Origin: Ignavibacteria bacterium
Lineage (GTDB): Bacteria; Bacteroidota; Ignavibacteria; Ignavibacteriales; SURF-24
Assembly (NCBI GenBank): GCA_025612245.1
Contig: JAAXKQ010000005.1
Coordinates: 70,009-134,008 of the forward strand
Length of the DNA stretch: 64,000 nt
Reading direction: 5' to 3'
Shown: one piece after another, positions 772 to 19,918 of the stretch
How positions within the stretch are numbered: the stretch's first letter is position 1
Layout: each line of letters opens with the position of its first letter
Notes under the pieces: model-generated
Database searches by the model: none
Seen by the model: only the letters and a program-made list of their open reading frames with translations
What the model was told of the DNA's origin: nothing
Made by a program: the position numbers and the translations under genes

Positions 772-1854
772 TTAGTTTCTCAGTCTCAAAAGGTTTTTCC
801 AGCTAGCGGTAAGGGGCTGCATAATCTCATCCACCCTTTCATCCTGTTTTCTTACGAGTGGGATTTCCGGATTAAATGAGGCCGAGGTTCCGAAATCCTC
901 AACTGTTCCGCGTTCAATATAGAAAGCAATAAGGTCAGCGAGCCTGGAAAGGACAACCCTTGAAAAGTAAGGTCCAATCCACCATATATAGGGGCCCGGG
1001 TTGCAGTCAAGCAGATAAAGACTGTTATCCGGTGCAACAATGACGTCCCAGGCGGAGAAGTTTAAGCCCAGGAGCCTGTTTGCCCTGGCGATTAAGGCTT
1101 CGTGTTCGGGGCTGAGGCTTACGGCTTCAAATCCCTTTGCATCGCTGCGGCTGTCGATGTCCTCAGAAACAATCCTGAGAGCAAGAACAACACTGTTTCC
1201 AACCGTGTGGACCCTGATAGTGCTGCCTTTTATTTCCTCCTGGAATAAAGAAGGGCAGTATTGGAGTTCTTCTTTCTCCGGCACCATGTTTTTCAAAAGC
1301 CTCCTTGTTCCTCCGACGCCATAGCCGGCCTTGATGATAAATTCCTCATCATTATGGAGAATCTTTTTTTTATAAAACCTGAGGCTGCCGGTTGCAAATG
1401 TATATGGAACAGGCAGGCCTTCTTGTTCAAGCATGTAGAAAAACTGTGCCTTGGCGTTGTGATGGAAATACGCAGATGGAGGGTTGATTACGAGAGCGCC
1501 TCTTTTTTCAAGCAGGCCGATCATGCCTGAAAATACTTTCTGCCTTGACTCTTCCATTAAGTAGCGTGCCTGCCAGAGGCTGAATTCAGCCGCGTTCAGA
1601 AGAGGCGGAATTACCGGAGGAACGCCGGTATTGATGCACCTTATGTAGACTGCCTTTACCGCAGAGAGATCCTCGCCGTAGACAATTTTATCGTTCCCAA
1701 GTACAATGTTGCTGGTTTTTATCTTGCCGTCTTCCTTAAAAGCCAGCATATAGGGCTTTTTCCCGCGTGACGAAAGTTCTTCAAAAAGAGTTACCGACTG
1801 GGGATCGTTAGCCTCTGGGGCAATTATAAGGCAGTCGGGACTGAAGTGATTCAT
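772..1854 (-). CDS. ATP-grasp family enzyme (RimK/glutathione-synthetase-like fold)
   Basis: 360 aa. Central IIKAGYGVGGTRRL (nucleotide-binding Lys/Gly-rich loop), QEEIKGSTIRVHTVG, and a C-terminal LYLLDCNPGP (D-x-N metal-ligand motif). Overlaps the upstream gene by 4 nt (1851-1854). Last gene of the minus-strand operon. Confidence 0.7.
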   Translation of the reverse strand: MNHFSPDCLIIAPEANDPQSVTLFEELSSRGKKPYMLAFKEDGKIKTSNIVLGNDKIVYGEDLSAVKAVYIRCINTGVPPVIPPLLNAAEFSLWQARYLMEESRQKVFSGMIGLLEKRGALVINPPSAYFHHNAKAQFFYMLEQEGLPVPYTFATGSLRFYKKKILHNDEEFIIKAGYGVGGTRRLLKNMVPEKEELQYCPSLFQEEIKGSTIRVHTVGNSVVLALRIVSEDIDSRSDAKGFEAVSLSPEHEALIARANRLLGLNFSAWDVIVAPDNSLYLLDCNPGPYIWWIGPYFSRVVLSRLADLIAFYIERGTVEDFGTSASFNPEIPLVRKQDERVDEIMQPLTASWKNLLRLRN

Positions 1855-2885
1855 CGAAGCTCCTGATTCTGCTGGATTTCAAACAAGTGGACCAGCATTC
1901 TTTTTAAGAATATTGTCTTTCTTTTTCCCTGAATTACAGGCTTTCGGGGAATCTTTTTCTCCAGGCCTGACTTTTTCAGCATGCCTTCCAGGAGACACGA
2001 CAATGTATAAGTCTGTGCCGCCTGATCCATGTAGGAAATGTTGGGGTCAAATGATACGTCGTAGAACCAGAAATTCCCACTGTCATCCAGAACGCCGAAA
2101 GCCTCGTAAAAGCTCATTCCAAGCAGTCTAAAGAGGGTCTTACCCATATTCTTCAGCACTGGCTGAGGGATATAATGCGTAAATTTTTCCAGCTCCTCTT
2201 TGAAGGCCCCCCTTTCAGGCGGTGAAATCAGACTGATCAGAAGCGGGTTGTCCTCAAAAAATGTAAGCCTTAAAAGGCTTCCGCGCTTTGGTTCATACAT
2301 TAGGTGCGGAAGCGCTAAACTGCCCGCATTAAAAAGTTCTTCCAGCTTCTCGGAACCTATCTCCCTTACAGGCGTCATGGAATCGGGGCTGGACCAGAGA
2401 ATTCCCCCCAGGCGATTGAACATAAGCCTCGCTTCAGAAAGTGAGTTTGTAAGGCATAATTCCGGGACACTTAGCCCTGCATCCTTTAGTCTCATGAGCA
2501 CTTCATGCCTCGAAGTCAGGTTTAAGGACAAGCTGAAATCATTTATTACGGTATATTCATTTTTTTTTGACGAGAGTATGTAAAGCAGGCTGTAGAGCTG
2601 GCTTGTCTGCTGCTGCTGCGACAAGTGAAAGTCCTGAAAAAAGGTCCAGTCGGCAGAAGGTTTTAAGGCAGGGCCGAAGGGGAACCTATAATAGACTCCT
2701 GAAAGAAAAAATACGGATCCTTTTTCGGGCCTGGAGCCACACAGGAGTATTTCCTCCGGGGAAATTGATACTGTAAATTGAGGATCCTTCGGGCACAAAT
2801 TCCTACATTTGATTCCGTTTTTCCGTGCTATTTTCTTCAAGAGCTCCGTCTGAGGGTTATAGTCATCACTTATCAAATAGAGCAT
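1851..2885 (-). CDS. Divergent ATP-grasp-like protein
   Basis: 344 aa. The layout matches an ATP-grasp: RHEVLMRLKDAGLSVPE, then GGILWSSPDS, then LLRLTFFEDNPL, then GVLDDSGNFWFYDVSFDPN. The D-x-N metal motif reads D-V-S, so it is degenerate. Overlaps the TolC-like gene by 20 nt. Confidence 0.45.
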   Translation of the reverse strand: MLYLISDDYNPQTELLKKIARKNGIKCRNLCPKDPQFTVSISPEEILLCGSRPEKGSVFFLSGVYYRFPFGPALKPSADWTFFQDFHLSQQQQTSQLYSLLYILSSKKNEYTVINDFSLSLNLTSRHEVLMRLKDAGLSVPELCLTNSLSEARLMFNRLGGILWSSPDSMTPVREIGSEKLEELFNAGSLALPHLMYEPKRGSLLRLTFFEDNPLLISLISPPERGAFKEELEKFTHYIPQPVLKNMGKTLFRLLGMSFYEAFGVLDDSGNFWFYDVSFDPNISYMDQAAQTYTLSCLLEGMLKKSGLEKKIPRKPVIQGKRKTIFLKRMLVHLFEIQQNQELR

Positions 2886-4608
2886 GTTCCGCCTTCTGAT
2901 TGTCCGTATTATTTATGATTTCCAGGGCCGTCCGGGGTTTAATTCCCAGGTATTGCATAAACTGTATGAGCAGGTCTATCTGGCTGTCGTAAACATTAAG
3001 TATGGCCATTGTTTCCGACAGGCCGGTTTTTTTATACTCGCTGTAGTCAAAGCGTGAAATACGCTGTATTTTGAAGAGCTCCTCGCCTTCCTTCATTATT
3101 TTGTTTGCGTAGGAGAGGTTATTGCGCGCTGAATTAAGGCTGATGTTGGAGGATTTCAGCTTAAATAAAAATTCATTTACCTGCAGATTAATATTCTCCT
3201 TTGTACTTTTGAGGTTCTGTTCCTGCTGTTCGTAATCTTCAATTGCAATCTGCCTCTGTATCCCGGAAGGGGAGGAAAAAAGGCTGAACCTGTAGTTAAA
3301 GCCTACATTCCAGGCAATGCCGTCGGGTTTACGGAAAAGGTTTCCAAGTGAATTTGTAATGGTGGAATATCCAAGCTCATCTGACTCAAAGACAGCCATG
3401 TTGCCTGTAAGAGAAATATCCGGCTTATACTGGTTAAGTGAATAGGCTAAGTTTACCTTTGCCTGTTCGAGCGACTTACGGGAAATTTCTATTTCCGGGT
3501 GCATATCTATAATTTTATCAGTCCCATCCTGCAGGCAGTTATTTACAAGGAACTTTTCGAAAGCCTCAAGATAGGTGTGTACGGAGTCAATTTGTGGAAT
3601 AAAAAGGTACATGTCCTGTGAGTTGACTACACTAGCCGGGTTCAGCTTTGCTGAAAGTGATATATAGTCGAAGAGCATCTGGTCCTTATCAGAAAGCATT
3701 TGCCTGTGTTCTTTTTCTATACGCAGGCGGTCGTAAACCGAGATCAAGTTTTTTGCAGTCAGTACCTGCTGGTCCTGCAACTGAACTTCCGTAAGCGCAA
3801 TCATCTCATGAATCAGCTTGAGCTTGTTCCAGAGGAAATATATTTTGAAGTAGTTTTTAATGGTCTCGTAGGATATGCTGTTTACTGCAATCTGTGAATT
3901 AGTTTTTGCAATATCGATGCTGATTTTTGTAATCTTCTTCTCATTCTCAACAGAAGAGCCTTCCTGTCCGGCATTCTTAAATAGGGGAAGTTCAAAACTG
4001 TTAGACAGTATGGCGCTCCATGGATAGCCGTATGCCTGTGGGAGGACCCTGTTTTTTAAGGAAAGGTTAAGCGCGTTGATGGAAAGTCCGTATGAAGTCC
4101 TGTAGTTAAAGCCCATACTATAAGACTGAAGAAAGTCCCTGTAGTCTGTACTTGCGTGGAGCTCAATTTCTCTTTCCTCCCATCTCAGAGGCTGGGGGAT
4201 CCACATGACGCCGCGGCCGCCGTTGGGAAGCCTGTAATCTGACTTAATTGGGTTCCTGTTATCCCATTCGACGGGAACCCTTGCATTTACGTCAACCAGT
4301 CTGTCGTATGAGCGGTAACCCTGAAGGCCTGCAGAGAGGTTAAAAACGGGTTTATAAGTCTCATCCGACAAAGAAAGCTGAAGGTCGTACTTTTGGATCT
4401 GTGTCCTGATAGAGCCGATTGCATAGGAGCTGCTGACCTGGTGGCGGATAATATCCCCGAGGTCCCTTGCTTTAAGTGAATCAAATACGGCAGAGCGCCC
4501 GGGAAAGATCTTGTTAAAATTATCAAGTATATCGCTTTCCGTCTGGGCATGAGCCGTTGCGGCATAAACAGCTAATATAAACAGTATTCTAGCGAATGAT
4601 CTCAGCAT
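2866..4608 (-). CDS. TolC-like outer-membrane channel (outer membrane efflux protein family)
   Basis: Start reassigned to the ATG at 4606-4608, giving the signal peptide MLRSFARILFILAVYAATAHAQ. About 580 aa with two-fold coiled-coil/beta-barrel organisation typical of the OEP family. The 5' end overlaps the upstream gene by 20 nt. Confidence 0.8.
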   Translation of the reverse strand: MLRSFARILFILAVYAATAHAQTESDILDNFNKIFPGRSAVFDSLKARDLGDIIRHQVSSSYAIGSIRTQIQKYDLQLSLSDETYKPVFNLSAGLQGYRSYDRLVDVNARVPVEWDNRNPIKSDYRLPNGGRGVMWIPQPLRWEEREIELHASTDYRDFLQSYSMGFNYRTSYGLSINALNLSLKNRVLPQAYGYPWSAILSNSFELPLFKNAGQEGSSVENEKKITKISIDIAKTNSQIAVNSISYETIKNYFKIYFLWNKLKLIHEMIALTEVQLQDQQVLTAKNLISVYDRLRIEKEHRQMLSDKDQMLFDYISLSAKLNPASVVNSQDMYLFIPQIDSVHTYLEAFEKFLVNNCLQDGTDKIIDMHPEIEISRKSLEQAKVNLAYSLNQYKPDISLTGNMAVFESDELGYSTITNSLGNLFRKPDGIAWNVGFNYRFSLFSSPSGIQRQIAIEDYEQQEQNLKSTKENINLQVNEFLFKLKSSNISLNSARNNLSYANKIMKEGEELFKIQRISRFDYSEYKKTGLSETMAILNVYDSQIDLLIQFMQYLGIKPRTALEIINNTDNQKAEHALFDK

Positions 4609-6847
4609 AGTCTCCCGGTAAAATTTTATTTCTTGACTGTTCGGTGATCTGGACTGAAATGAGTCCGTCACGATTGGATAATATTTTTCCTTTCCCCGCA
4701 TAGGCCATTTCCTGTTCGCCAAGGAAATCCGACTTTGCGTTGCTGATCCTGGCAAACCTGACTTCCTTTCCGGCCTCAACAATCATGCTTGCCGGAAGCC
4801 TGAGCTGTGCAATTCCATTTTCAACTTTTACAACTTCCATGTAAAGCGGGACGTGCATCGTCACCTCAAAGACCATGCGGAACAAGTTAGGCGGATTGCT
4901 TTTTGCAACCATGCGGTTATAAAAGAGCTGCTTTTTTACTCCCGGTTTTTCCTTGAAGCAATTGAAAACATATTCATTAAGGCCGTCTTTCTGGTTAACC
5001 TGGCAATAGAGGGCTACCTTGGAAATCCTGTTCAGGTTAGCCTGTGAAAGCCTCAGGTTTTCGACATCCACGACTTCAAAGCCGCGTTGTGAAAGATTTG
5101 CCACCAGTGCACTTTTAAGCCTGCTGACGTCAAGTTTTCCATGAGCCTTGACAGGCATGAGAAATATCTTGTTCACCTTGGAGAGGCTTTCAGAATTGAA
5201 GCTCTGGAACATGGTTCTTAATTTACTCTCATCAACAGCTGCCCAGTCGCCATACGGGTGCAATGTAAAGGAGCTGCTGGAATAAATGACTGTCGGATCT
5301 GCCGTCCTGAGTATTGCCTGTATATTTGAAACGACGTTCTGCGAAATGTTATCTTTGCACCACATTAAAGACAAAGGCTCGCTGCCTACGGAGAAGTTCT
5401 CTATGAGATTTGCTCCAGGGTTGGCGTACTTGTAGTAGTAGGCCGCCTCTTCGCTCACGAAGGCCACGTCGCTTTTGCCAGCAATGACAGAGTCAATTGC
5501 ATTGTAGGACATTTTTGCGTAGCTGAGCCTTGAGAAGTATGTCTCGGGATCGACGCCGCTTTTATAGAGCGAGAGGAAGGGTGAAAGGTAAGCATTTTTT
5601 GAAAACACAGCCTTAGTTCCCCTGATGCCATAAATATTTTTGAAAGTCCTTCTGCTCGAAACGGCAACGACATTAACGTAATTTTTCTTGCTCCAGGTCC
5701 TAATCAGTATAGGATGCCCGGAATGCGAAGAGTACAGCCGGTCCGAGATAATATTGTTGAAAATTGCAATGCTTACCGCGCCACTGGTGTAAGCATCGTA
5801 GAGCTCTTCCTCGGAGCCGTAAATCTTGAGCTGGAACTCCACGCCGCAGTTTTTCTTCAGGAACTGCAGCACGGGTTGCCATTCGGCTGCCATGGTGGTG
5901 TTTCCCACCGGCAAGACTGAAGTGCTGCTGATGCCGATTACCACGTCGCCTATACCGGCTAAGCCCTGAAGAGAATTGTTCCCTATAATGGTGAGTTTCG
6001 GGAACTGCGACTGCAGGTCCTCCATTATGCTTGAGCGTTCCTCGGCATTTGTGGATTTCATGTACATGGAATACTTATCCCAGAATTTTTTCCATGCAAA
6101 AGCCTTGGGGTAAAGGTTATTGAATATATATTTAACAGTGCTGTACATGCCGGGAAATTTTTCCTTGAGAACAATGTCGTGAGCCTGAAGTATGTTTGTA
6201 ATGTTAGAGCCGTACGTAAAGAGCGAGTCTATCTTCCAGGATTCCGGCGCAACACTTGCAGCCTCCGGAGGGAGGGGATAATCGTTGTAAAACTTTACGA
6301 ATGGAACGACTTCACGGAACAGGTCGACCAGGAACAGCATGTCGGGATTGTTTTGTTTTACAAGCCTGAAATCCTCCTCATTCATAGCAGCCAGGCTGAC
6401 GTCGCCGTAGGTGGCAAACTCAATTTCAAGATTTATCACGTTCTTTCTGACAATCAGTTCACCGTAAATTTTCTTCAGCTCCTGCCTGGAAGGATATTTG
6501 TCAACTGCCAGCCTGAAGGTTTCTGTCAGGTCGTCAGTTTTTGTAAGAAGAGTATCGATCTGCTCCATTGTGGTGAAATTTCGTTCGGAATACTTAATGT
6601 AATTTTCAAACTCGCCCGTTATCTTTTTAACGTACAGGTTCTCCTCTCGGACGCCTCTGACATAAATAATAGCCGTAAGCAGGACGGAAAGGAATACAAC
6701 CAGGGTTACTCCGAGCATCGTTTTTCTTTTCTTTGAGAGCCTGAAAGCGTTGACCGGTTCTTCTTTAGGGGCTTCTTCTTTTGGAGTTTCTTCCTGTTCA
6801 AGGAAAAGCTTTATTCCCTCTTCATCTGTTATTTTATATTTATTCAC
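4589..6847 (-). CDS. Single-pass membrane protein with large extracytoplasmic region containing a PhnD-like (type-2 periplasmic binding protein) domain
   Basis: 752 aa. Charged N-terminus, then one TM helix (MLGVTLVVFLSVLLTAIIYV). The central segment EWQPVLQFLKKNCGVEFQLKIYGSEEELYDAYTSGAVSIAIF...GTKAVFSKNAYLSPFLSLYKSGVDPETYF...SDVAFVSEEA resembles phosphonate-binding (PhnD) folds. Its start codon directly abuts the upstream stop codon (6847/6848). Confidence 0.55.
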   Translation of the reverse strand: MNKYKITDEEGIKLFLEQEETPKEEAPKEEPVNAFRLSKKRKTMLGVTLVVFLSVLLTAIIYVRGVREENLYVKKITGEFENYIKYSERNFTTMEQIDTLLTKTDDLTETFRLAVDKYPSRQELKKIYGELIVRKNVINLEIEFATYGDVSLAAMNEEDFRLVKQNNPDMLFLVDLFREVVPFVKFYNDYPLPPEAASVAPESWKIDSLFTYGSNITNILQAHDIVLKEKFPGMYSTVKYIFNNLYPKAFAWKKFWDKYSMYMKSTNAEERSSIMEDLQSQFPKLTIIGNNSLQGLAGIGDVVIGISSTSVLPVGNTTMAAEWQPVLQFLKKNCGVEFQLKIYGSEEELYDAYTSGAVSIAIFNNIISDRLYSSHSGHPILIRTWSKKNYVNVVAVSSRRTFKNIYGIRGTKAVFSKNAYLSPFLSLYKSGVDPETYFSRLSYAKMSYNAIDSVIAGKSDVAFVSEEAAYYYKYANPGANLIENFSVGSEPLSLMWCKDNISQNVVSNIQAILRTADPTVIYSSSSFTLHPYGDWAAVDESKLRTMFQSFNSESLSKVNKIFLMPVKAHGKLDVSRLKSALVANLSQRGFEVVDVENLRLSQANLNRISKVALYCQVNQKDGLNEYVFNCFKEKPGVKKQLFYNRMVAKSNPPNLFRMVFEVTMHVPLYMEVVKVENGIAQLRLPASMIVEAGKEVRFARISNAKSDFLGEQEMAYAGKGKILSNRDGLISVQITEQSRNKILPGDYAEIIR

Positions 6848-11100: not shown

Positions 11101-11148
11101 TGACACAGAATTTAATTTTTCTAAAACCGCATCTTCTTTAAAATACAT
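8119..11148 (-). CDS. C39 peptidase-domain ABC exporter with two N-terminal cyclic-nucleotide-binding-like domains
   Basis: 1009 aa. Two cNMP-like modules lie at about aa 15-125 and 150-250 (LFSGLTAEEMEAL...GDFTGEMSFI; YYVVKGSIEIL...GDFLGEYGAITG). The C39 domain has Gln299, Cys305 (RQHDEMDCGAACL), His378 (GYHWIVL) and Asp394 (VADPA). A six-helix TMD follows, then an NBD with GKSGCGKST, VSGGQKQR, IFIFDEATSALD and IIAHRLS. Confidence 0.9.
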   Translation of the reverse strand: MYFKEDAVLEKLNSVSLFSGLTAEEMEALSANTSTRKLTLGEELYNEGDEQNTFISVVSGSLRLKKKIDDKLRSVGKLNAGDFTGEMSFIRPGCWDYSISSADETLVYEINAGKPELASVASKLKKEIACSEFKRLLSKIVAVKKPDEAWLGQLSESVWISGYEEAETIFKQDEMSNSLYYVVKGSIEILRDMPEGKFSVGLAHNGDFLGEYGAITGRKQGYEARTKTAATLLEIPNNFVQEIFSLNGALREALLEKINSYETEEKRQKELSSHTSETEDEFPAFDEGKKIKKFPWLRQHDEMDCGAACLTMVSKFYGHKLSMGMVREMANVSVAGASMAAVCKAGENLGFRTRGLKLTYPALKDVNLPAILHWQGYHWIVLFKISKEFVWVADPAIGIRKISHGEFKKSWTGYAIELEPTERLNELKPAKNPIFRYINYLKPMKIFLIEVFIGALILNILGLASPLFIQSILDNVIVYKNTSLLNMMLMGMVLVAFFSTLTSSAQQFIIATISAKLDLRMLAEFFKYVLSLPMSYFYNRKLGDTITRFGENSKIRAILTEASISTVLNVIMLVVYLQMMFLYSVTLSLVVLAFIPFFIALTFVFTPIFKRISNEQFIVSSDQSSYLIEAIHGIETIKANGTEWNVRNRWEESFLKSVNLSFKSQKLGLVSGVISQTLNTASTVAILWVGSNQVINGSMSIGQLMAFNALIGSVMGPIMSIVGLWDNYQSVSVAMDRLNDVFECEPEEKPVVSAGEIKREMTHCDGRIEFNNLQFRYGSEDSPLVLKSISLKVEPGQVVAFVGKSGCGKSTLIKTIPGFIMPTGGSLLIDGVDIKNINLLSLRRNIGMVLQESFLFSGTVMENIALGDINPDEKRVREAAEMAAAHEFITQLPAGYKTIVGERGLAVSGGQKQRICIARALYRNPKIFIFDEATSALDAESERKIQENLNNILVNRTAFIIAHRLSTVRNADIICFLGDGIVLEKGTHDELIRQKGFYYAMAKDQLGVE

Positions 11149-11150
11149 AT

Positions 11151-14903: not shown

Positions 14904-16472
14904 ATGATGCCAGTGAAAGTTATAGCTTTAATTTCCTCCATGTTTGTACTTTCGTCCTTACTTACATTTGCAGGGGGAATCCGGGTTAAAAACGCCGTAA
15001 TTGATGAAATAAACCTGCAAAAGAAATATGCCTATGTGAGTTTTGACCTGAGCTGGGAAAACTCATGGCGGAGTGATCTGCCCGGAACGGGCCATGTTGA
15101 CCCTTTTAACCACGATGCCGCCTGGGTATTTGTGAAATATAAGGACCAGGCGGGCTACTTCAGGCATGCATTGCTTTCGAGCATAAGCCGGAGCCACGTT
15201 TCGGACGGGAAAGCTGCAATTAGTGCATCCCCGGATGGCAAGGGGGTCTTTATTTATTCCGGGAGCAATTTTTCGGGGCGCGCTGAATACAGGGGAATTA
15301 GGCTCAAATGGAATTTTGGTTCTGAAAATGCGGAAATTAAGAAAAGTACGGAGATCAGGGTCCTTGCTGTTGAAATGGTCTATGTTCCTGAAGGCTCCTT
15401 TTATGCCGGCGACGGCGCTTCCTATGGAAGCCTCTACGGCAAAACTCAGGATGTGCCATCGCTAATCGGCGAAGGCGAGAGCCTGGTTAGGGCTTCCAGG
15501 AACAGTTTTGATGATGAAGCTCTCATTCAGGAAGGATTTTGGATTTCGGGTAAATCGGGCATAAGATCCAAAGACGGCTCATTTGAAAATCCGGAATACC
15601 CGTGCGGATACGGAGCCTTCTATATTATGAAGTATGAAATATCACAGGGAGAGTATTCCGGGTTTTTGAACCTGATTTCGGTAAAACAGTCATACAGGCG
15701 TGAAGCAAAGGCCTATGGTGAATACAGGAATACGATCAGATTTGACGGAAATAAGTTTATTGCAGAACGCCCTTCAAGGGCCTGCAACTTTTTAAGCTGG
15801 ATGGATGGCGCTGCGTATGCAGACTGGACGGGGCTGCGCCCGATGAGTGAGCTTGAGTTTGAAAAAGCTGCCAGGGGTTTTAACTCCGGGGCAGGTCTTC
15901 CAAATGCCGCAAAAAAGAATGAATTTGCGTGGAATGATGATAGCATCAGTCCCGCACTGTCAATTGGGGGAAAGGAAGACGGTTCTGAGGTGGCCGAAGG
16001 TAATGCTGCATTTGGCAATGTAACCTATAAAGGAGGCGACGGTATGTCCGGTCCCTTGAGGTGCGGGATCTTTGAAAATCCGGGACAGGGGAAACTTTCA
16101 GGCCGAAGCTACTATGGGGTCCTGGACCTAAGCGGCAACCTTGCCGAACAGTGTGTTACAATCGGCAACCAGGCAGGCCGTTCATTTACAGGTAATGAAG
16201 GTGACGGCATGTTGAATGAAGCCGGGGACGCCGACGTAAGCTACTGGCCGGGCATTAATGGCAATTCAGATCAGGAGAAGTCAAGCCTGGCCTATGTGGG
16301 AAATGTTGTTGAAGGGCCCGGGGTTACTGCTGCAGCCGGAAGCGGGCAGAAAGGAGGCAGCTGGTATACGAAAAAGAGTTTCCTCATGATCAGCGACCGC
16401 TCGTACGCTTCACATCCGCTTGACTATAGATCCGAGTCCGCCGGTTTCAGATGCGTAAGAAGTGCCAGATAA
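14904..16472 (+). CDS. Exported FGE-sulfatase (SUMF1/GldK-like) domain protein
   Basis: 522 aa. Signal peptide (VIALISSMFVLSSLLTFAGG). The C-terminal half has SWMDGAAYADWTGLRPMSELEFEKAARG, YGVLDLSGNLAEQC, KGGSW and a terminal GFRCVRS, matching the formylglycine-generating-enzyme fold signature. Confidence 0.75.
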   Translation: MMPVKVIALISSMFVLSSLLTFAGGIRVKNAVIDEINLQKKYAYVSFDLSWENSWRSDLPGTGHVDPFNHDAAWVFVKYKDQAGYFRHALLSSISRSHVSDGKAAISASPDGKGVFIYSGSNFSGRAEYRGIRLKWNFGSENAEIKKSTEIRVLAVEMVYVPEGSFYAGDGASYGSLYGKTQDVPSLIGEGESLVRASRNSFDDEALIQEGFWISGKSGIRSKDGSFENPEYPCGYGAFYIMKYEISQGEYSGFLNLISVKQSYRREAKAYGEYRNTIRFDGNKFIAERPSRACNFLSWMDGAAYADWTGLRPMSELEFEKAARGFNSGAGLPNAAKKNEFAWNDDSISPALSIGGKEDGSEVAEGNAAFGNVTYKGGDGMSGPLRCGIFENPGQGKLSGRSYYGVLDLSGNLAEQCVTIGNQAGRSFTGNEGDGMLNEAGDADVSYWPGINGNSDQEKSSLAYVGNVVEGPGVTAAAGSGQKGGSWYTKKSFLMISDRSYASHPLDYRSESAGFRCVRSAR

Positions 16473-16535: not shown

Positions 16536-16574
16536 GCCGGACTATAATATTATAATTTATATCAGGCCGGACTA
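16536..16574. repeat. Direct repeat GCCGGACTA x2 with a 30-bp period, each embedded in an AT-rich palindromic context
   Basis: GCCGGACTA occurs at 16536-16544 and 16566-16574, flanked by TATAATTATAATATT / TATAATATTATAATTT. Lies about 65-120 bp upstream of the candidate -24/-12 element. Confidence 0.5.
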
Positions 16575-16639: not shown

Positions 16640-16655
16640 AGGCATAAAACTTGTT
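16640..16655 (+). promoter_or_regulatory. Weak sigma-54 -24/-12-like element upstream of the precursor genes
   Basis: AGGCAT-N5-TTGT compared with the consensus TGGCAC-N5-TTGC. GG is at the correct -24 position but the -12 GC reads GT. Lies 55 nt upstream of the ATG at 16711. Confidence 0.25.
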
Positions 16656-16710
16656 CAAGAAATAACAGATATTTATTTATGCTTACTCAAAATTTAACAG
16701 GAGGCCCTAC

Positions 16711-17157
16711 ATGGCAAGAATTAAATTAAATGATCTGGAAGTTAACCAGCAGCTTGATGCTGAGGCACTGAAGAATGTAACCGGCGGCGCCGGGACATAT
16801 ACAAATGCTGCTAATACCGGGACGAAAACCGGAGGAAATTCATCAAACTATGGTACACAGTCCGGCGGAACGGGTGGTTCGGGCGGTTATGCAAGCGGCG
16901 GCTCTACAAGCGGCGGAAGCGGCTTTGGAGGCCAGGGTATAGGCGGCGGAGCATCTTCAGGCGGATGGGGCTTCTTAAATTTTGGCGGCGGAAATAAAGG
17001 CGGCGCTGGCTATGGCGGCAATGCGTCGGCTTCGACCATTGGAGCAGTCGGTGGCGCCGGTGGCGCAGGCGGGTCAGCCGTGGGTGTCATGAATTCCGGC
17101 AATGTTACCGACAACATGTCTGAATCAGTTTCAATTCCTGTTACACTAAGCTTATAA
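16711..17157 (+). CDS. Double-glycine-leader, glycine-rich secreted protein precursor 1
   Basis: 148 aa. AGGAGG Shine-Dalgarno sequence 7 nt upstream. The leader MARIKLNDLEVNQQLDAEALKNVTGG has hydrophobic residues at -4, -7 and -12 and Glu at -9 relative to the GG. The 122-aa core has no Cys and 42 Gly by hand count. Conserved C-terminal tail SGNVTDNMSESVSIPVTLSL. Confidence 0.85.
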   Translation: MARIKLNDLEVNQQLDAEALKNVTGGAGTYTNAANTGTKTGGNSSNYGTQSGGTGGSGGYASGGSTSGGSGFGGQGIGGGASSGGWGFLNFGGGNKGGAGYGGNASASTIGAVGGAGGAGGSAVGVMNSGNVTDNMSESVSIPVTLSL

Positions 17158-17167
17158 GGAGAATAAT

Positions 17168-17620
17168 ATGTCGAGAATAAAATTAAATGACCTCGAAGAA
17201 AATCAGCAGCTTGATGCTGAAGCATTAAAACAGGTTACAGGCGGAAACAATATCACAAACTCAGCAAATACCGGAACCAAGACCGGAGGAAACTCAACCA
17301 ACTACGGCACACAGTCCGGCGGAACGGGTGGTTCGGGCGGCGGATCATACGGCGGATGGACCTCAGGCGGCAGCGCAGGCGGTGGAACAGGTTTTGGCGG
17401 CAGTGCTACGGGCGGAGCCGGAAGCTGGGGCTTCCTGAACTTCGGCAGCACTGGTAATAAAGGCGGCGCTGGCTATGGCGGCAATGCATCGGCTTCGACC
17501 ATTGGAGCAGTCGGTGGCGCCGGTGGCGCAGGCGGGTCAGCCGTGGGTGTAATGGGTTCAGGAAACGTTTCCGACAACGTTTCAGAATCTGTTTCCATTC
17601 CAATTACCATGTCATTATGA
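17168..17620 (+). CDS. Double-glycine-leader, glycine-rich secreted protein precursor 2
   Basis: 150 aa. AAGGAG Shine-Dalgarno sequence. Leader MSRIKLNDLEENQQLDAEALKQVTGG. The core is collinear with precursor 1 (GTKTGGNS.NYGTQSGGTGGSGG, WGFLNFG, NKGGAGYGGNASASTIGAVGGAGGAGGSAVGVM, SESVSIP). Confidence 0.85.
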   Translation: MSRIKLNDLEENQQLDAEALKQVTGGNNITNSANTGTKTGGNSTNYGTQSGGTGGSGGGSYGGWTSGGSAGGGTGFGGSATGGAGSWGFLNFGSTGNKGGAGYGGNASASTIGAVGGAGGAGGSAVGVMGSGNVSDNVSESVSIPITMSL

Positions 17621-17630
17621 TTTTCAAAAA

Positions 17631-17658
17631 GATCCCGGAATATCCGGGATCTTTTTTC
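17631..17658 (+). terminator. Rho-independent terminator after the precursor pair
   Basis: GATCCCGG(A)-loop-(T)CCGGGATC stem (17631-17651) followed by T6 (17652-17657). Begins 11 nt after the stop codon. Confidence 0.8.
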
Positions 17659-17803: not shown

Positions 17804-19120
17804 ATGGAAAAATATTTCTTTAATGTTCGTAATTCCCGGATATACTGTTCTGACGTCCTGAACTTCATGAAATTAACCGGCCTTTATCATACAGCTCATA
17901 CCTATACGGCAATGAACTCGGTCCTGAAAGAATTTGCAAAAAAGCTTGGCGTAGCAGTTAGCGATGAGATGCTCCAGAATTATGCTGATTATAAAAGAAA
18001 GCAGCTTGGACTTCTGAAGGCAGAGCAGATGCAGAAATACCTCGATACGCTGGAAGTCTCACTTGAGGACTGGGAGACTTCGCTGGAAGATGAACTCTAC
18101 CGTATTGAGCTCAGGAATAAATTGGGAGGTTCCATTTATGTCGGTGACGCCTGGAACATACTCAAGACGATTCCGGAGATCAGAAACAGCATAAATGAAA
18201 TTATAGCAGAAAAAGCTGGCAGCTGCAAATTGGACTTAAGCGACGAAGAGCTTCAAAAGGAATCGGATGTTTTAAGACGAGCCCTTAACCTCCACAAGAA
18301 AAGTGATCTCTCGGTATACCTGAACAGCCTCAACATGAATGAAGAGGACTGGGAGAAAAACGTAACAGCGAGCGTTTTTTCGAGAAAGTTAAAAGAAAAG
18401 AATATTTCTCCTTTAACCAAAAATGAAGTAGCCAGCATATTAAACCGCTACCCCGTAATAAAGGATCTCCTGAGTAAACTTGTCTTCGGCAATATTATAA
18501 GGGCCAAAGCTTCAGAACTGAATATTTCGGTTAGCGATGAAGAGCTCAACTCCTACGCCGAAAACTTCCGCAGGGCTTTAGGTCTCCATAAAACAGAGCA
18601 TTTTAACATCTGGCTGAATGCCGCCGGATTAAATATAGAAGATTTTGAAATTATGGCTGAAACGGCCATACTGGCAAAGAAGGTAATTCAAAACTCAGAT
18701 GAACTACAGTACAAGGGCGACATTGAAAAAAGCGTAAAGTGCAGTTCATTTTTCAGCGATGCTCTCCTGGAAGTAATCTCGCAGGAGCTCATCGCCTCCG
18801 AAGCAAGGCAGAAAGGAATGAAGGTCAGTGACGCTGAACTGCAGGAACTTTCCGATGCTTTAAGGCGCGTCAACGGATATCACAAGGCTTCAGTATTCGA
18901 AAAACACCTGGAATTCTACGGCCTGCCTGCTGAATGCTGGGAAGAGTACGTTGAAAGACAATCTTTGATTAAAAAGATGAAAGAGGCCCAGACCACTGAT
19001 GAGAGGGTTCTGGAGTATCTCCATGATAATAAAGAAGCTTTAGATTCAATGAAAGCTGAAGCATTCAGGGACTACGCTTATAAGCTGTCTTCAAAGTCTC
19101 AACTTGAATGGTTCAACTAA
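17804..19120 (+). CDS. Cytoplasmic protein built from four SurA-N-terminal-like repeats
   Basis: Start moved to the ATG at 17804, which has an AAGGAGGA Shine-Dalgarno sequence upstream. 438 aa with no signal peptide. A module of about 95 aa recurs four times: x(V/L)SDxELQxxxDxxRRxLGLHKxxxFxxxLxxxGLxxEDWE, with the SD(E/A)E cores encoded near 17957, 18236, 18530 and 18824. Confidence 0.6.
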   Translation: MEKYFFNVRNSRIYCSDVLNFMKLTGLYHTAHTYTAMNSVLKEFAKKLGVAVSDEMLQNYADYKRKQLGLLKAEQMQKYLDTLEVSLEDWETSLEDELYRIELRNKLGGSIYVGDAWNILKTIPEIRNSINEIIAEKAGSCKLDLSDEELQKESDVLRRALNLHKKSDLSVYLNSLNMNEEDWEKNVTASVFSRKLKEKNISPLTKNEVASILNRYPVIKDLLSKLVFGNIIRAKASELNISVSDEELNSYAENFRRALGLHKTEHFNIWLNAAGLNIEDFEIMAETAILAKKVIQNSDELQYKGDIEKSVKCSSFFSDALLEVISQELIASEARQKGMKVSDAELQELSDALRRVNGYHKASVFEKHLEFYGLPAECWEEYVERQSLIKKMKEAQTTDERVLEYLHDNKEALDSMKAEAFRDYAYKLSSKSQLEWFN

Positions 19121-19159
19121 TCAGTTTCATTTTTTCAATAATTTAACCGGATAACTTAC

Positions 19160-19918
19160 ATGGACGAAGTAGTTTTATTAAATGTCAATGATAACCCTGT
19201 TACAAATTCCCAGATCATGATCAGGCTGAAAGCGAAAGGCGAATATAAAAAAGCCTTATCAGAACAGATGATGAATGTTGCATTGAAGGACTATGCCCAG
19301 AAAAACGGCATATCGGTTTCAGATTCAGAACTGCAGGAATATGCCGATAAAAAAAGAAAGGAACTGGGTCTTTTCTCGGTGACCGCTACGGAAAAATATT
19401 TTTCCAACCTGGGAATTAACATAGACCAGTGGAGTGACGGGCTAGAAGAAGAGCTCTTAAAAGAAAAGGTCAAAAAAACAGTTGCTACAGAAGAAAAAGT
19501 AAAAGAGTATTTTGAAGCCAACAGGCTGCGCTTTATTTGTGTGCCGCTGCACAGAATAGTAGTAAAAGAAAAATCCATGGCAGAAGAAATCAGGATGCAG
19601 ATAGAAGACGAGGACGAGGACTTTTCCGCACTGGCCAAAAAGTACTCTATCGACAGCTCTACAGCCCCAACGGGCGGCTATATGGGGGTAATCAGGCGGG
19701 GTGCTCTTCCGGTTGAAGTTGAAGCAAAAGTATTCAGCGCAGCCGAAAATGAACTCTGCGGCGTTTTTGAAGATGCTGATGGATATTCCCTGTACAAGCC
19801 CGGGAAAGTCGTATATCCCGAACTTGACGAGGCCATGAAGGAGAATATAATAAAAGGATTGTTTGACCTATGGACAAATAACCTTCTTAATTCGGCAACC
19901 ATAAAATTCCCTAACTAA
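19160..19918 (+). CDS. Parvulin-type peptidyl-prolyl isomerase with one SurA-N-like module, no signal peptide
   Basis: 252 aa. The N-terminal half is homologous to the repeats of the upstream gene (NGISVSDSELQEYADKKRKELGLFSVTATEKYFSNLGINIDQWSD). The C-terminal rotamase-like segment is HRIVVKEKSMAEEI...FSALAKKYSIDSSTAPTGGYMGVIRRGALPVEVEAKVFS. Confidence 0.7.
   Translation: MDEVVLLNVNDNPVTNSQIMIRLKAKGEYKKALSEQMMNVALKDYAQKNGISVSDSELQEYADKKRKELGLFSVTATEKYFSNLGINIDQWSDGLEEELLKEKVKKTVATEEKVKEYFEANRLRFICVPLHRIVVKEKSMAEEIRMQIEDEDEDFSALAKKYSIDSSTAPTGGYMGVIRRGALPVEVEAKVFSAAENELCGVFEDADGYSLYKPGKVVYPELDEAMKENIIKGLFDLWTNNLLNSATIKFPN

What the first reader, a model, noticed from the sequence alone, without database searches (positions are those of the whole stretch)
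772..19918. 19-kb two-armed locus for double-glycine-leader, glycine-rich proteins, combining a cNMP-domain C39 exporter with sigma-54 control, twin ATP-grasp proteins and cytoplasmic SurA/parvulin-like proteins
Seen directly: seven minus-strand genes from 12569 down to 772 are packed with junctions ranging from a 20-nt overlap to a 20-nt gap. In order they are a HlyD adaptor, a cNMP-cNMP-C39-ABC exporter, a bEBP, a TM-anchored PhnD-like protein, a TolC-like channel and two ATP-grasp proteins. They are preceded by an LRR/T9SS gene across a 71-nt gap with no hairpin. Divergently, an exported FGE-domain gene, two GG-leader precursor genes, a terminator, a 4x SurA-N-like gene and a parvulin gene follow on the plus strand.

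Established: a C39-ABC transporter with a HlyD-type adaptor and TolC is the dedicated type-I route for double-glycine-leader peptides, as in colicin V CvaAB-TolC and class II bacteriocin/competence-peptide exporters.

What does not fit those paradigms: the cargo core is 122-124 aa, cysteine-free and about one third Gly. No small immunity-like membrane ORF is visible. The exporter operon also carries its own sigma-54 activator, a candidate extracytoplasmic ligand-binding protein and two ATP-grasp proteins.

Inference: this is a regulated maturation and export system for a glycine-rich extracellular protein (toxin, signal or matrix/fibre component). I do not recognise it as a described system.
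Basis: partly seen in the sequence, partly recalled or inferred. Interest (0 to 1): 0.9.

Follow-up and report, generated by a model that had tools for sequence, protein, structure and literature searches.

The report
Glycine-rich protein maturation and export cluster
This Ignavibacteria gene cluster encodes two glycine-rich secreted proteins together with a peptide-crosslinking (ATP-grasp) enzyme pair, chaperone-like helpers, a leader-cleaving exporter and its own regulator; the same gene set recurs in about 40 uncultured bacteria from many phyla and looks like an undescribed branch of the 'graspetide' modified-peptide systems.

Summary

It is not a chance juxtaposition. About 40 loci from MAGs and metagenomes of at least 8 phyla carry the same core:
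- glycine-rich precursors;
- an ATP-grasp ligase plus a degenerate paralogue;
- one to three long TolC-like proteins;
- a cNMP-cNMP-C39-ABC exporter and a HlyD adaptor;
- a cytoplasmic parvulin/SurA-like protein;
- a receiver-less sigma-54 activator.

The ATP-grasp enzyme is a graspetide-macrocyclase relative. Its best solved match is PsnB (E 3e-31), with Arg72 and Arg213 kept and the DFR loop changed to DSR. The parvulin-like proteins are closest to TIGR04500, the partner protein needed for rosaritide (group 21 graspetide) synthesis. This explains the "odd" cytoplasmic SurA/parvulin and twin ATP-grasp genes.

The precursors form an unannotated family of more than 100 clusters, with one invariant Lys (K-x-G-G) and one invariant Asp (D-N). 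Most homologues are short and lack a leader.

The FGE gene and the 4x SurA-N gene are not conserved elsewhere. The LRR gene recurs only in L043.

No convincing sigma-54 promoter precedes the window's own precursor genes, although relatives have near-consensus ones.

Verdict: a new variant of a known kind. The chemistry and the biological role are still unknown.

The parts
772..1854 (-). ATPg1: ATP-grasp ligase of the graspetide-macrocyclase type, the predicted catalytic subunit.
   Evidence: The profile hits PsnB (7DRM) at E 3e-31 over nearly the full length, then CdnC, MdnC, AMdnB and MdnB. R72, R214, K175 and D283-x-N285 are kept, and DFR is replaced by D234-S235-R236. It belongs to a small distinct clade: 16 representatives at E<1e-30 among 1.84 billion.
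1851..2885 (-). ATPg2: a divergent ATP-grasp paralogue, probably non-catalytic and acting as a partner subunit.
   Evidence: hhalign against ATPg1 gives 97% probability, E 1e-11. It hits PsnB at E 7e-10. The AF2 model (pLDDT 57) matches PsnB, CdnC and MdnC best by Foldseek. It keeps the Arg213 equivalent (R206) but lacks the Arg72, ATP-lysine, DxR and ExN asparagine equivalents. It co-occurs with ATPg1 in about 20 loci.
2866..4608 (-). Long TolC-like outer-membrane channel (about 580 aa) with a signal peptide.
   Evidence: Pfam OEP, E 4e-23. The N-terminal signal peptide follows the Met at 4608. Homologues sit in the same position in L007, L009, L011-L014 and L043, and three tandem paralogues occur in many other loci.
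4589..6847 (-). Single-pass membrane protein whose large periplasmic part includes a PhnD-like solute-binding domain.
   Evidence: Pfam Phosphonate-bd, E 7e-18, at residues 317-475. A TM helix lies at about residues 44-63. Full-length homologues occur in L007, L014 and L043. Its N-terminal periplasmic part resembles the FHA-domain membrane proteins that follow the PCAT gene in other phyla.
6848..8098 (-). Sigma-54 enhancer-binding protein without a receiver domain.
   Evidence: Sigma54_activat, E 6e-66, plus AAA_lid_14. It carries a GSFTGA loop and a C-terminal HTH, and its 95-aa N-terminus has no REC hit. Homologues occur in L009, L017, L021, L022, L026, L034 and L043.
8119..11148 (-). PCAT exporter with the architecture cNMP-binding x2, C39 peptidase, ABC membrane domain and ABC ATPase.
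   Evidence: Pfam. TIGR03796 (NHLM type) scores 550 bits, below its cut-off. The catalytic Cys (DEMDCGAACL) and His (GYHWIV) align with PCAT1. The full-length architecture is conserved in 11 other loci.
11151..12569 (-). HlyD-type periplasmic adaptor.
   Evidence: HlyD_3 and HlyD_D23; TIGR01843, E 3e-28. It lies next to the PCAT gene in 11 related loci.
12641..14761 (-). LRR protein with a T9SS sorting tail; membership in the system is uncertain.
   Evidence: LRR_8 and Por_Secre_tail. An LRR protein also abuts the cluster in L043 but in no other locus. T9SS cargo genes are common in this window.
14904..16472 (+). Exported FGE-sulfatase-domain protein, probably not part of the conserved system.
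   Evidence: Pfam FGE-sulfatase, E 1e-14, with a signal peptide. It has no homologue in any related locus.
16536..16574 (+). Two copies of GCCGGACTA, 30 bp apart, in the AT-rich region upstream of the precursors; a candidate activator-binding site (inference).
   Evidence: There are 3 matches in the window against 0.16 expected, and two of them lie here.
16640..16655 (+). Weak sigma-54-like element AGGCATAAAACTTGTT, 71 nt upstream of precursor 1.
   Evidence: It matches 8 of 11 consensus positions. About 0.19 such sites are expected by chance in this spacer. On its own it is not convincing.
16711..17157 (+). Precursor 1: a 26-aa GG leader followed by a 122-aa Gly-rich, Cys-free core.
   Evidence: Translation. 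The family alignment shows invariant K39 (TGTKTGG) and D134 (VTDN). The core has only four charged residues: K39, K96, D134 and E138. AF2 predicts a helical leader and a disordered core.
17168..17620 (+). Precursor 2: a paralogue 82% identical to precursor 1, lying 10 nt after it.
17626..17656 (+). Intrinsic terminator hairpin after the precursor genes.
   Evidence: A 14-bp stem followed by a U run; dG -20.9 kcal/mol, z -4.9.
17804..19120 (+). Cytoplasmic protein built of about four SurA-N/TIGR04500-like chaperone modules; specific to this lineage.
   Evidence: SurA_N_3, SurA_N_2 and SurA_N hits. TIGR04500 scores 100 bits in 3 stretches. Internal repeats match the N-terminus of the parvulin protein. 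It has no signal peptide and no separate counterpart in other loci.
19160..19918 (+). Cytoplasmic SurA-N plus parvulin protein, the likely partner/chaperone of the ATP-grasp enzyme.
   Evidence: Rotamase and SurA_N_3. TIGR04500 is the best NCBIfam hit here and in 7 of 7 homologues from other loci, always covering profile positions about 87-330 and so lacking the N-domain. It has no signal peptide.

Best explanation
This is a graspetide-type maturation and dedicated export system for small glycine-rich proteins.

Proposed sequence of events:
1. The receiver-less sigma-54 activator switches on the tandem precursor genes.
2. In the cytoplasm the unfolded, Gly-rich precursor is bound by an ATP-grasp pair. 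ATPg1 is catalytic. ATPg2 is a degenerate paralogue that still has the carboxylate-binding arginine.
3. TIGR04500-like SurA-N/parvulin partner proteins assist this step.
4. ATPg1 activates a side-chain carboxylate. The best candidate is the one invariant Asp in the C-terminal ..[ST]-D-N.. motif. It joins this Asp to a nucleophile, and the best candidate is the one invariant Lys in the N-proximal K-x-G-G motif. The result would be a large isopeptide-closed loop of 24-105 residues, or possibly an intermolecular link.
5. The cNMP-gated C39-ABC transporter removes the GG leader. Together with HlyD and the long TolC-like channel it expels the product across both membranes.

Shown by sequence and comparison: the gene set, its conservation, the family relationships, the intact C39 catalytic dyad, the leader, and the invariant Lys and Asp.

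Inferred: that the ATP-grasp acts on these precursors, which residues are joined, the heterodimer, the partner role of the parvulin-like proteins, the sigma-54 dependence in this particular genome, and the biological role of the product.
For: **Conservation**
- ATPg1 relatives occur in 29 species genomes and 8 metagenome contigs across Kapabacteria, Fibrobacter, Planctomycetota, Magnetococcales, alpha-, beta- and gammaproteobacteria, Hydrogenedentes and Syntrophobacteraceae.
- They recur next to ATPg2, OEP, cNMP-PCAT, HlyD, the parvulin-like protein and the bEBP.
- L043 repeats the window's operon almost gene for gene, with a precursor co-transcribed after ATPg2.

**Enzyme**
- ATPg1 hits PsnB at E 3e-31, then CdnC, MdnC, AMdnB and MdnB.
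- The equivalents of Arg72, Arg213, the ATP-binding Lys and D-x-N are kept.
- The ATPg2 model is closest to the same macrocyclases.
[quoted passage not shown] That makes an active/inactive heterodimer plausible.

**Partner**
- TIGR04500 is the top hit for the parvulin-like protein in 8 of 8 cases.
- The TIGR04500 protein MirC is required for, and co-purifies with, the graspetide synthetase MirB, in a cluster that also has an NHLM-type PCAT.

**Precursors**
- All 108 database homologues have K-x-G-[GA] and D-[NQ] near the C-terminus.
- They occur as 1-5 tandem copies next to ATPg1.

**Export**
- The C39 Cys and His align with PCAT1, and the leader is a canonical GG leader.

**Regulation**
- A TGGCAC-N5-TTGC site matching at least 10 of 11 positions lies 80-130 nt (205 nt in L038) upstream of the first precursor gene in 10 loci.
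- The background is 19 such sites in 984 kb of scanned sequence, both strands counted.
Against: - There is no chemical evidence, so the modification and the linked residues are guesses.
- ATPg1 scores far below the NCBIfam cut-offs of all named graspetide maturases (50 bits against 350-475). It has Ser where the D(F/W)R loop has Phe or Trp.
- Classical graspetides have several donor/acceptor pairs and a leader that activates the enzyme. Here only one Lys and one Asp are invariant, and most family members have no leader.
- The invariance of Lys and Asp is partly circular, because the homologues were found with profiles that contain those motifs.
- The conserved C-terminal motif could instead be a type-I secretion signal.
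- The parvulin-like proteins lack the N-domain that MirC needs.
- The window's own sigma-54 site is weak, although the genome uses a canonical site elsewhere, at 61717.
- L001 has precursors with no ATP-grasp within 10 kb. L014 has the ATP-grasp/OEP module with no precursor nearby. The parts can therefore be unlinked in the genome.
Confidence: 0.6

Rival explanations
1. The precursors are class II microcin-like bacteriocins: Gly-rich, Cys-free, GG-leader toxins exported by PCAT-HlyD-TolC. The peptide is essentially unmodified or only modified at its C-terminus. The ATP-grasp proteins would serve immunity, a tail addition or an unrelated task.
For: The GG leader, the intact C39-ABC, HlyD and the TolC-like protein match the ColV/MccE492 export route; that comparison rests on my own knowledge and on the review PMC10233263 listed. 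In L001 the precursors sit next to a CPBP/Rce1-like protease, and in L001, L007 and L042 next to a small lipoprotein. Either could be an immunity factor.
Against: - No immunity-like gene is conserved across the family, and none is present in the window.
- Tandem precursor copies are nearly identical rather than diversified (for example L026 and L030).
- Most homologues lack a leader, and 5 of 12 exporters have lost the catalytic Cys.
- The ATP-grasp pair is the gene most tightly linked to the precursors, often flanking them directly.
Confidence: 0.12
2. The product is a structural extracellular material such as matrix, fibre or coat. The ATP-grasp, or a spontaneous reaction, links the Lys of one monomer to the Asp of another, so the secreted units polymerise.
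For: - The cores are very Gly/Ala/Ser-rich and predicted to be disordered.
- Gene dosage is raised by near-identical tandem copies.
- There are up to three dedicated OEP paralogues.
- There is one Lys and one Asp per monomer, at opposite ends.
Against: A cytoplasmic ATP-grasp would have to make polymers before passage through a type-I channel, which is hard to reconcile with export. No anchoring or assembly genes are conserved. This rival concerns the product's role more than the maturation mechanism, and it overlaps with the main explanation.
Confidence: 0.15
3. The ATP-grasp enzyme does not cross-link. Like RimK or LysX it ligates an amino acid or small amine onto the invariant Asp or onto the C-terminus.
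For: ATPg1 also gives weak hits to the RimK and LysX families. The DFR loop is altered to DSR. Only one acidic residue is invariant.
Against: The similarity to RiPP macrocyclases is much stronger: PsnB at 111 bits against RimK at about 18 bits. Arg72 and Arg213, typical of macrocyclases, are kept. The extreme C-terminal residue is not conserved across the family.
Confidence: 0.1
4. The genes are a chance neighbourhood with no functional relationship.
For: FGE and the 4x SurA-N gene are found only in this window, and the LRR gene recurs only in L043.
Against: The core gene set recurs in about 40 loci from at least 8 phyla, with conserved order within lineages.
Confidence: 0.01

Closest known systems
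Rosaritide (group 21 graspetide) cluster mirABCD of Micromonospora rosaria (PMC13097080)
   Same: Both have a precursor with a PCAT cut site, a graspetide-type ATP-grasp ligase, a cytoplasmic SurA-like 'PpiC' protein of the TIGR04500 lineage and an NHLM-type PCAT. In that system the SurA-like protein is an obligatory partner of the ligase.
   Different: - The partner here lacks the N-domain of TIGR04500, keeps a recognisable parvulin domain and scores below the family cut-off.
- There is an extra degenerate ATP-grasp paralogue.
- The precursor core is 70-125 aa and Gly-rich, with a single invariant Lys and Asp, rather than a short core with three rings.
- This is a Gram-negative export set (HlyD, TolC-like) with sigma-54 control.
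- The taxa are different.
Plesiocin synthetase PsnB (group 2 graspetide; PDB 7DRM)
   Same: PsnB is the best solved relative of both ATPg1 (E 3e-31) and ATPg2. The equivalents of Arg72, Arg213, the ATP-binding Lys and the Mg ligands are kept in ATPg1. PsnB acts as an asymmetric dimer.
   Different: - The DFR loop reads DSR here.
- The plesiocin core has repeated TTxxxxEE motifs, which are absent here.
- PsnB is a homodimer that depends on a leader Phe; many precursors here have no leader.
Microviridin pathway (MdnA with the twin ATP-grasp ligases MdnB and MdnC)
   Same: Two ATP-grasp genes sit in one cluster with a GG-type precursor and an ABC exporter. MdnC and MdnB are significant hits of ATPg1.
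   Different: In microviridin both ligases are active, one making esters and one making the amide. Here the second copy lacks ATP-binding signature residues. The microviridin core is 13-14 aa.
Class II microcin and colicin V export (CvaAB-TolC; MccE492, MccH47)
   Same: A GG-leader, Gly-rich, Cys-poor cargo is cleaved and exported by C39-ABC, HlyD and TolC in a Gram-negative cell.
   Different: - There is no conserved immunity gene.
- The cargo is linked to an ATP-grasp/partner maturation module.
- The exporter carries two cNMP-binding domains.
- The OEP genes are dedicated and long.
- The system is not enterobacterial.
HetC of Nostoc PCC 7120 (a PCAT with a cNMP domain; PMC10986499)
   Same: Both have an N-terminal cyclic-nucleotide-binding domain fused to C39-ABC. 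In HetC that domain binds ppGpp in vitro and is needed for function.
   Different: The HetC cargo is unknown and is not encoded nearby. Here there are two cNMP domains, and the cargo genes are adjacent.
HlyB-type T1SS with a C39-like domain (CLD) and C-terminal secretion signals
   Same: In 5 of 12 exporters of this family the catalytic Cys is lost, and the cargo has no leader but a conserved C-terminal motif. This resembles CLD-dependent export of substrates with C-terminal signals.
   Different: The window's own exporter keeps the catalytic dyad, and its cargo has a canonical N-terminal GG leader. The cargo is far smaller than RTX proteins.

Membership tests
Graspetide (omega-ester/amide peptide) ATP-grasp macrocyclases | Full-length sequence similarity to solved RiPP macrocyclases that is stronger than to RimK, LysX or GshB. 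| tested here: met
   ATPg1 profile: PsnB 111 bits (E 3e-31), CdnC 43, MdnC 43, AMdnB 35 and MdnB 34, against RimK at about 18.
Graspetide (omega-ester/amide peptide) ATP-grasp macrocyclases | Conserved Arg72 and Arg213 (PsnB numbering), which bind the core and the ring-forming carboxylate. | tested here: met
   R72 and R214 are invariant in the ATPg1 alignment and align with PsnB chain residues R92 and R233 (chain numbering is offset by 20). ATPg2 keeps only the Arg213 equivalent.
Graspetide (omega-ester/amide peptide) ATP-grasp macrocyclases | The D(F/W)R loop. | tested here: inconclusive
   ATPg1 has an invariant D234-S235-R236. Asp and Arg are kept, and the aromatic residue is replaced by Ser. 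ATPg2 has no DxR.
Graspetide (omega-ester/amide peptide) ATP-grasp macrocyclases | Score above the curated cut-off of a named maturase family (TIGR04184 MvdD, TIGR04185 MvdC or TIGR04187). | tested here: not met
   ATPg1 scores 50, 31 and 50 bits against cut-offs of 475, 425 and 350.
Graspetide precursors | Conserved donor (Ser/Thr/Lys) and acceptor (Asp/Glu) residues in the core. | tested here: met
   There is one invariant Lys (K-x-G-G) and one invariant Asp (D-N) in all 108 homologues. This is only one pair, and the homologues were selected with profiles containing these motifs.
Graspetide precursors | Side-chain macrolactone or macrolactam actually installed. | not testable with these tools
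   This needs mass spectrometry or NMR of the co-expressed or native product.
Graspetide precursors | A leader peptide that binds and activates the ligase. | tested here: inconclusive
   The window and six other loci have a 26-aa helical GG leader. Most family members start 3-20 residues before the invariant Lys.
TIGR04500 peptide-maturation partner proteins (MirC-like) | Score above the family cut-off of 180 bits, covering both the N-domain and the SurA-like C-domain. | tested here: not met
   TIGR04500 is the best hit in 8 of 8 parvulin-like proteins, but at 40-92 bits, and only profile positions about 87-330 are covered. These are relatives, not members.
Peptidase-containing ABC transporters (PCAT/AMS) | A C39 domain with catalytic Cys and His, followed by six-helix ABC_membrane and ABC_tran domains. 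| tested here: met
   Pfam E-values are 8.5e-35, 3.7e-46 and 2.3e-34. The Cys in DCGAACL and the His in GYHWIV align with PCAT1.
Peptidase-containing ABC transporters (PCAT/AMS) | Cargo with a double-glycine leader encoded nearby. | tested here: met
   The leaders read MARIKLNDLEVNQQLDAEALKNVTGG and MSRIKLNDLEENQQLDAEALKQVTGG, with hydrophobic residues at -4, -7 and -12.
Class II microcin systems | A dedicated immunity gene next to the structural gene. | tested here: not met
   There is no small membrane ORF or conserved candidate in the window. The lipoprotein seen in L001, L007 and L042 is absent here.
Sigma-54-dependent operons | A bEBP with an AAA+ sigma-54 interaction domain and a GAFTGA-type loop. 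| tested here: met
   Sigma54_activat, E 6e-66; the loop reads GSFTGA.
Sigma-54-dependent operons | A -24/-12 promoter (TGGCAC-N5-TTGC) upstream of the target genes. | tested here: inconclusive
   The window has only an 8/11 match at 16640, with about 0.19 expected by chance. In related loci, 10 have a match of at least 10/11 upstream of the first precursor gene, against a background of 19 sites in 984 kb of scanned sequence, both strands counted.

The most novel reading that the evidence does not exclude
This would be a previously unrecognised class of ATP-grasp-modified secreted proteins with these properties:
- An obligate heterodimer of an active and a pseudo ATP-grasp subunit, helped by a leader-independent SurA/parvulin-type partner.
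- A single Lys-Asp isopeptide that closes a 24-105-residue glycine-rich macrocycle, or links monomers head to tail. Either product lies far outside the size and topology range of known graspetides.
- Secretion through a cNMP-gated PCAT and, in many lineages, a heterotrimeric TolC-like channel.
Probability: 0.3. Interest if true: 0.8.

Novelty: new variant of a known kind. Interest (0 to 1): 0.65.

Why it matters
**New branch of graspetide biology.** If the inference holds, graspetide chemistry extends from short multi-ring peptides to 7-12 kDa glycine-rich proteins. It would also add a second, independent case of partner-protein-dependent ATP-grasp maturation, and it introduces a pseudo-enzyme subunit.

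**Missed by existing surveys.**
- The ligase falls below all curated family thresholds.
- The precursors have no Pfam or NCBIfam model.
- Every occurrence found is in an uncultured organism, which probably explains why graspetide surveys did not report it.
- The precursor motifs are absent from the text and held supplements of the two large surveys and from the searchable literature.

**A rare cargo assignment for a cNMP-domain exporter.** The cluster pairs a cNMP-domain PCAT with an identifiable cargo, which is still missing for HetC.

**A natural series in the exporter.** Within one family the C39 domain runs from catalytic to degenerate, alongside cargo that runs from leader-bearing to leaderless.

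**Open question.** The biological role (toxin, signal or matrix) is unknown, and that limits the immediate impact.

Tried and rejected
- **AF2 on precursor 1.** With an 8-sequence alignment only the leader helix was predicted and the core was disordered (pLDDT 41). No structural clue to Lys-Asp proximity came out of it.
- **Metagenome scans with precursor alignments.** One alignment had no usable conserved stretch. The leader-based patterns found no relatives.
- **Exact look-up of the window's precursor.** It is not on record.
- **Sigma-54 promoter in the window's intergenic regions.** Only one 8/11 site was found, so I do not claim it.
- **Does loss of the C39 catalytic Cys track the leaderless cargo?** The Cys is lost in 5 of 12 exporters, and every known cargo of those is short-form. 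Several Cys-retaining exporters also have short-form cargo, so there is no clean covariation.
- **Homologue of the lipoprotein interleaved with precursors in L001, L007 and L042.** None was found in the window.
- **Motif searches of the graspetide surveys and the paper library.** There were no hits. One supplement was truncated when stored, so absence is not proven.
- **N-glycosylation sequon reading of D-N-x-S/T.** I considered this and dropped it because several long-form members have D-N-I-I or D-Q.
- **FGE, LRR and 4x SurA-N as core parts.** FGE and the 4x SurA-N gene are rejected for lack of conservation. The LRR gene remains uncertain because of L043.

Full report
**1. What is in the window**

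Minus strand, listed in operon order (descending coordinates):

| Coordinates | Product |
|---|---|
| 12641-14761 | LRR protein with a T9SS tail |
| 11151-12569 | HlyD adaptor |
| 8119-11148 | cNMP x2 - C39 - ABC exporter |
| 6848-8098 | sigma-54 activator |
| 4589-6847 | single-pass membrane protein with a PhnD-like domain |
| 2866-4608 | long TolC-like protein |
| 1851-2885 | 344-aa protein without a Pfam hit |
| 772-1854 | ATP-grasp protein |

Plus strand:

| Coordinates | Product |
|---|---|
| 14904-16472 | exported FGE-domain protein |
| 16711-17157 and 17168-17620 | two precursor genes |
| 17626-17656 | hairpin terminator (dG -20.9, z -4.9) |
| 17804-19120 | protein of repeated SurA-N modules |
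| 19160-19918 | SurA-N plus parvulin protein |

- The last two proteins have no signal peptide.
- The precursors carry textbook double-glycine leaders.
- Their cores are 122 and 124 aa, contain no Cys and are 34% Gly. Each has only four charged residues (K39, K96, D134 and E138 in precursor 1).
- The C39 domain keeps the catalytic Cys and His of PCAT1.
- The window comes from an Ignavibacteria MAG: NCBI locus tag HF314_07380 is identical to the 344-aa protein.

**2. The juxtaposition is not chance**

Direct homologues of the precursor are rare. Only 6 clusters were found among 5.8 billion proteins, but their contexts are informative.
- L007 repeats the order precursor / ATP-grasp / 344-aa protein / TolC-like / PhnD-like / exporter.
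- L009 comes from a high-GC organism. It has the parvulin-like gene, a precursor, both ATP-grasp genes, a TolC-like gene and the end of a sigma-54 activator.
- L001 has two precursors with a lipoprotein and a CPBP protease, but no ATP-grasp within 10 kb.

A profile of the first ATP-grasp protein (ATPg1) found relatives in many lineages.
- It found 29 loci in species-representative genomes and 8 in metagenomes.
- The lineages are Kapabacteria, Fibrobacter, Planctomycetota, Magnetococcales, several classes of Pseudomonadota, Hydrogenedentes and Syntrophobacteraceae.
- All are MAGs or metagenome contigs.

BLAST and iterated HMM searches with the window's proteins against all ORFs of these loci show a recurring set.
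- It consists of ATPg1, the 344-aa paralogue (ATPg2), one to three TolC-like proteins, a full-length cNMP-cNMP-C39-ABC exporter, HlyD, a protein of about 250 aa like the window's parvulin protein, and a sigma-54 activator of about 425 aa.
- L043 mirrors the window nearly gene for gene. It has three long-form precursors, one directly after ATPg2 in the same operon.
- FGE and the 4x SurA-N gene have no counterpart elsewhere.
- An LRR gene abuts the cluster only in the window and in L043. T9SS cargo genes are frequent in this genome anyway.

**3. The ATP-grasp pair**
- The ATPg1 profile matches the plesiocin macrocyclase PsnB at E 3e-31 over almost its whole length. CdnC, MdnC, AMdnB and MdnB follow, and RimK scores about 18 bits.
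- Using the PsnB study as the yardstick, ATPg1 keeps the equivalents of Arg72 (R72) and Arg213 (R214, which binds the ring-forming carboxylate). It also keeps the ATP lysine (K175) and the D-x-N metal site.
- The D(F/W)R loop reads D-S-R, and this is invariant in the family.
- ATPg1 is far below the cut-offs of the named maturase families.
- It belongs to a small, separate clade: 16 representatives at E<1e-30 among 1.84 billion, followed by a score gap.
- ATPg2 is a paralogue (hhalign 97%). It still matches PsnB (E 7e-10). Even from a modest model (pLDDT 57), its fold is closest to PsnB, CdnC, AMdnB, MdnC and PruB.
- ATPg2 retains the Arg213 equivalent but lacks the equivalents of Arg72, the ATP lysine, DxR and the asparagine of ExN.
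- PsnB works as an asymmetric dimer with only one subunit fully engaged. I therefore infer an active/inactive heterodimer. This is an inference, not a result.

**4. The cytoplasmic SurA/parvulin proteins**
- Their best NCBIfam match is TIGR04500, described as a 'putative peptide maturation system protein'. This holds in the window and in 7 of 7 homologues from other phyla.
- The match always covers profile positions about 87-330 and is always below the cut-off.
- A 2026 study showed that the TIGR04500 protein MirC is a SurA-like partner. The graspetide synthetase MirB is inactive without it, the two proteins co-purify, and their cluster also contains an NHLM-type PCAT.
- An earlier survey had listed TIGR04500 among the families associated with graspetide ATP-grasp loci.
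- Two differences stand out. The proteins here lack the RRE-like N-domain of MirC, and they keep a recognisable parvulin domain.

**5. The precursor family**

In most related loci, 1-5 tandem small genes lie beside ATPg1, often between ATPg2 and ATPg1.
- They encode 67-107-aa Gly/Ala/Ser-rich proteins.
- They share two motifs with the window's precursors.
  - N-proximal: (S/T)-G-K-(S/T)-G-G-(D/E/N).
  - C-terminal: (S/T)-D-N-T-S-I-G-x-I-x-(I/V)-x-S in short forms, and V-(T/S)-D-N-(I/V)-S-x-x-I-S-I-P-V-T-M-x-L in long forms.
- Most short forms begin 3-20 residues before the Lys, so they have no leader or only a stub.
- A profile of 18 short forms retrieves 102 further clusters. All are 'hypothetical', none has a Pfam hit, and all come from MAGs or metagenomes.
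- All 108 database members have K-x-G-[GA] and a D-[NQ] within the last 22 residues, spaced 24-105 residues apart. There is some circularity, because those motifs helped to find them.
- AF2 predicts only the leader helix, and the core is disordered.

**6. Exporter variation**
- The cNMP-cNMP-C39-ABC architecture is conserved full-length in 12 loci.
- The catalytic Cys is replaced in 5 of them: L021, L034, L038, L040 and L046. Where the cargo of these is known, it is the short form.
- Some Cys-retaining exporters also serve short forms, so the correlation is incomplete.
- Many proteobacterial and planctomycete loci carry three tandem OEP paralogues of 615-700 aa. They also have an FHA-domain membrane protein after the exporter gene, whose periplasmic part resembles the N-terminal part of the window's PhnD-like protein.
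- HetC of Nostoc is the known precedent for a cNMP-domain PCAT.

**7. Regulation**
- The activator lacks a receiver domain and has a GSFTGA loop.
- In 10 related loci a site matching TGGCAC-N5-TTGC at 10 or more of 11 positions lies 80-130 nt upstream of the first precursor gene (205 nt in L038). L031 has a perfect site.
- The background is 19 such sites in 984 kb of scanned sequence, counting both strands.
- In the window the only candidate is AGGCATAAAACTTGTT at 16640. It matches 8 of 11 positions, and about 0.19 such sites are expected by chance.
- This genome does use a canonical site elsewhere, at 61717.
- A GCCGGACTA direct repeat lies 66-104 nt upstream of the candidate.
- Sigma-54 control is therefore well supported for the family and only plausible for this locus.

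**8. Interpretation**

The best-supported model is a graspetide-type maturation system coupled to a dedicated PCAT/HlyD/OEP export route.
- I propose that ATPg1 activates the invariant Asp and joins it to the invariant Lys. ATPg2 and the parvulin/SurA-N proteins would act as substrate-handling partners.
- The exporter then removes the GG leader after G26 and secretes the product.
- The identity of the linkage, the complex and the product's role are inferences.

Rival explanations:
- an essentially unmodified microcin-like toxin;
- a polymerising matrix protein;
- RimK-like ligation instead of cross-linking;
- chance juxtaposition, which the synteny data exclude.

**9. Novelty**
- The kind of system is known: an ATP-grasp RiPP cluster with a SurA-like partner and PCAT export.
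- The family is not. Its ligase clade is separate, its precursors are unannotated, and its motifs were not found in the two large graspetide surveys or in the paper library.
- Unusual features:
  - the size and composition of the core;
  - a single invariant donor/acceptor pair;
  - mostly leaderless precursors;
  - a degenerate ligase paralogue;
  - sigma-54 control;
  - dedicated long OEPs, up to three per locus.
- I classify it as a new variant of a known kind.

Noticed in passing
window 53231-63999: A second sigma-54-type unit. A near-consensus promoter (TGGCACGCCTTTAGCT, at 61717 on the minus strand) precedes an operon encoding an NTP-transferase, MlaE, an ABC ATPase, MlaD, a 273-aa ATP-grasp-like protein (57554-58375; 24% identical to ATPg1, no Pfam hit), a class-III aminotransferase, a CDP-alcohol phosphatidyltransferase, a GFO/IDH/MocA oxidoreductase and an LPG_synthase_TM protein. 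A divergent 715-aa sigma-54 activator lies at 61852-63999. It looks like a lipid head-group modification and transport operon.
   Followed up: partly
L021 12033-18005; L031 1794-7632 (also L016, L020, L023, L028, L032, L033, L035, L039): Three tandem paralogous OEP (TolC-like) genes of 615-700 aa occur in most proteobacterial and planctomycete versions of the system. This suggests a heterotrimeric outer-membrane channel. The window, L007, L009, L014 and L043 have a single copy.
   Followed up: partly
L001 9446-9982; L007 140-640; L042 4729-5214: A 166-178-aa lipoprotein gene is interleaved with long-form precursor genes in three independent loci. It is a candidate immunity or accessory factor and is absent from the window.
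   Followed up: partly
L001 3582-8378: In the one precursor locus without ATP-grasp or exporter genes within 10 kb, the precursors sit next to a CPBP/Rce1-like intramembrane protease and a 1319-aa protein with no Pfam hit.
   Followed up: no
L021 8514-9875; L031 413-1789; L040 7593-8858; L022 8781-9623: An FHA-domain membrane protein follows the exporter gene in several loci, and L022 has a PP2C-like phosphatase after ATPg1. This hints at Ser/Thr-phosphorylation input into the system. The window has a PhnD-like periplasmic domain in the equivalent protein instead.
   Followed up: no
L014 5008-14365: In a complete Kapabacteria chromosome the PhnD-like, TolC-like, ATPg2 and ATPg1 genes form a stand-alone operon followed by two histidine kinases. 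No exporter or precursor lies within 10 kb, so the system can be split across the genome.
   Followed up: partly
L031 11063-12967: An ExeA/GspA-like protein (AAA_22, a GspA C39-like domain and a peptidoglycan-binding domain) lies directly after ATPg1 in a Magnetococcales locus.
   Followed up: no
window 28124-34549 and 47067-49763: Two more large genes whose products end in a C-terminal segment similar to the T9SS sorting tail of the LRR protein (tblastn). The 2141-aa Ig-repeat protein also has a Pfam Por_Secre_tail hit; the 898-aa BNR/sortilin-like protein has no such Pfam hit at E<=1e-5. T9SS-type tails therefore seem common here, which weakens any specific link of the LRR/T9SS gene to the cluster.
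   Followed up: partly
window 16536-16574: GCCGGACTA is repeated twice, 30 bp apart, in the AT-rich spacer upstream of the precursors. The whole window has 3 copies against 0.16 expected. This is a possible activator-binding site.
   Followed up: partly
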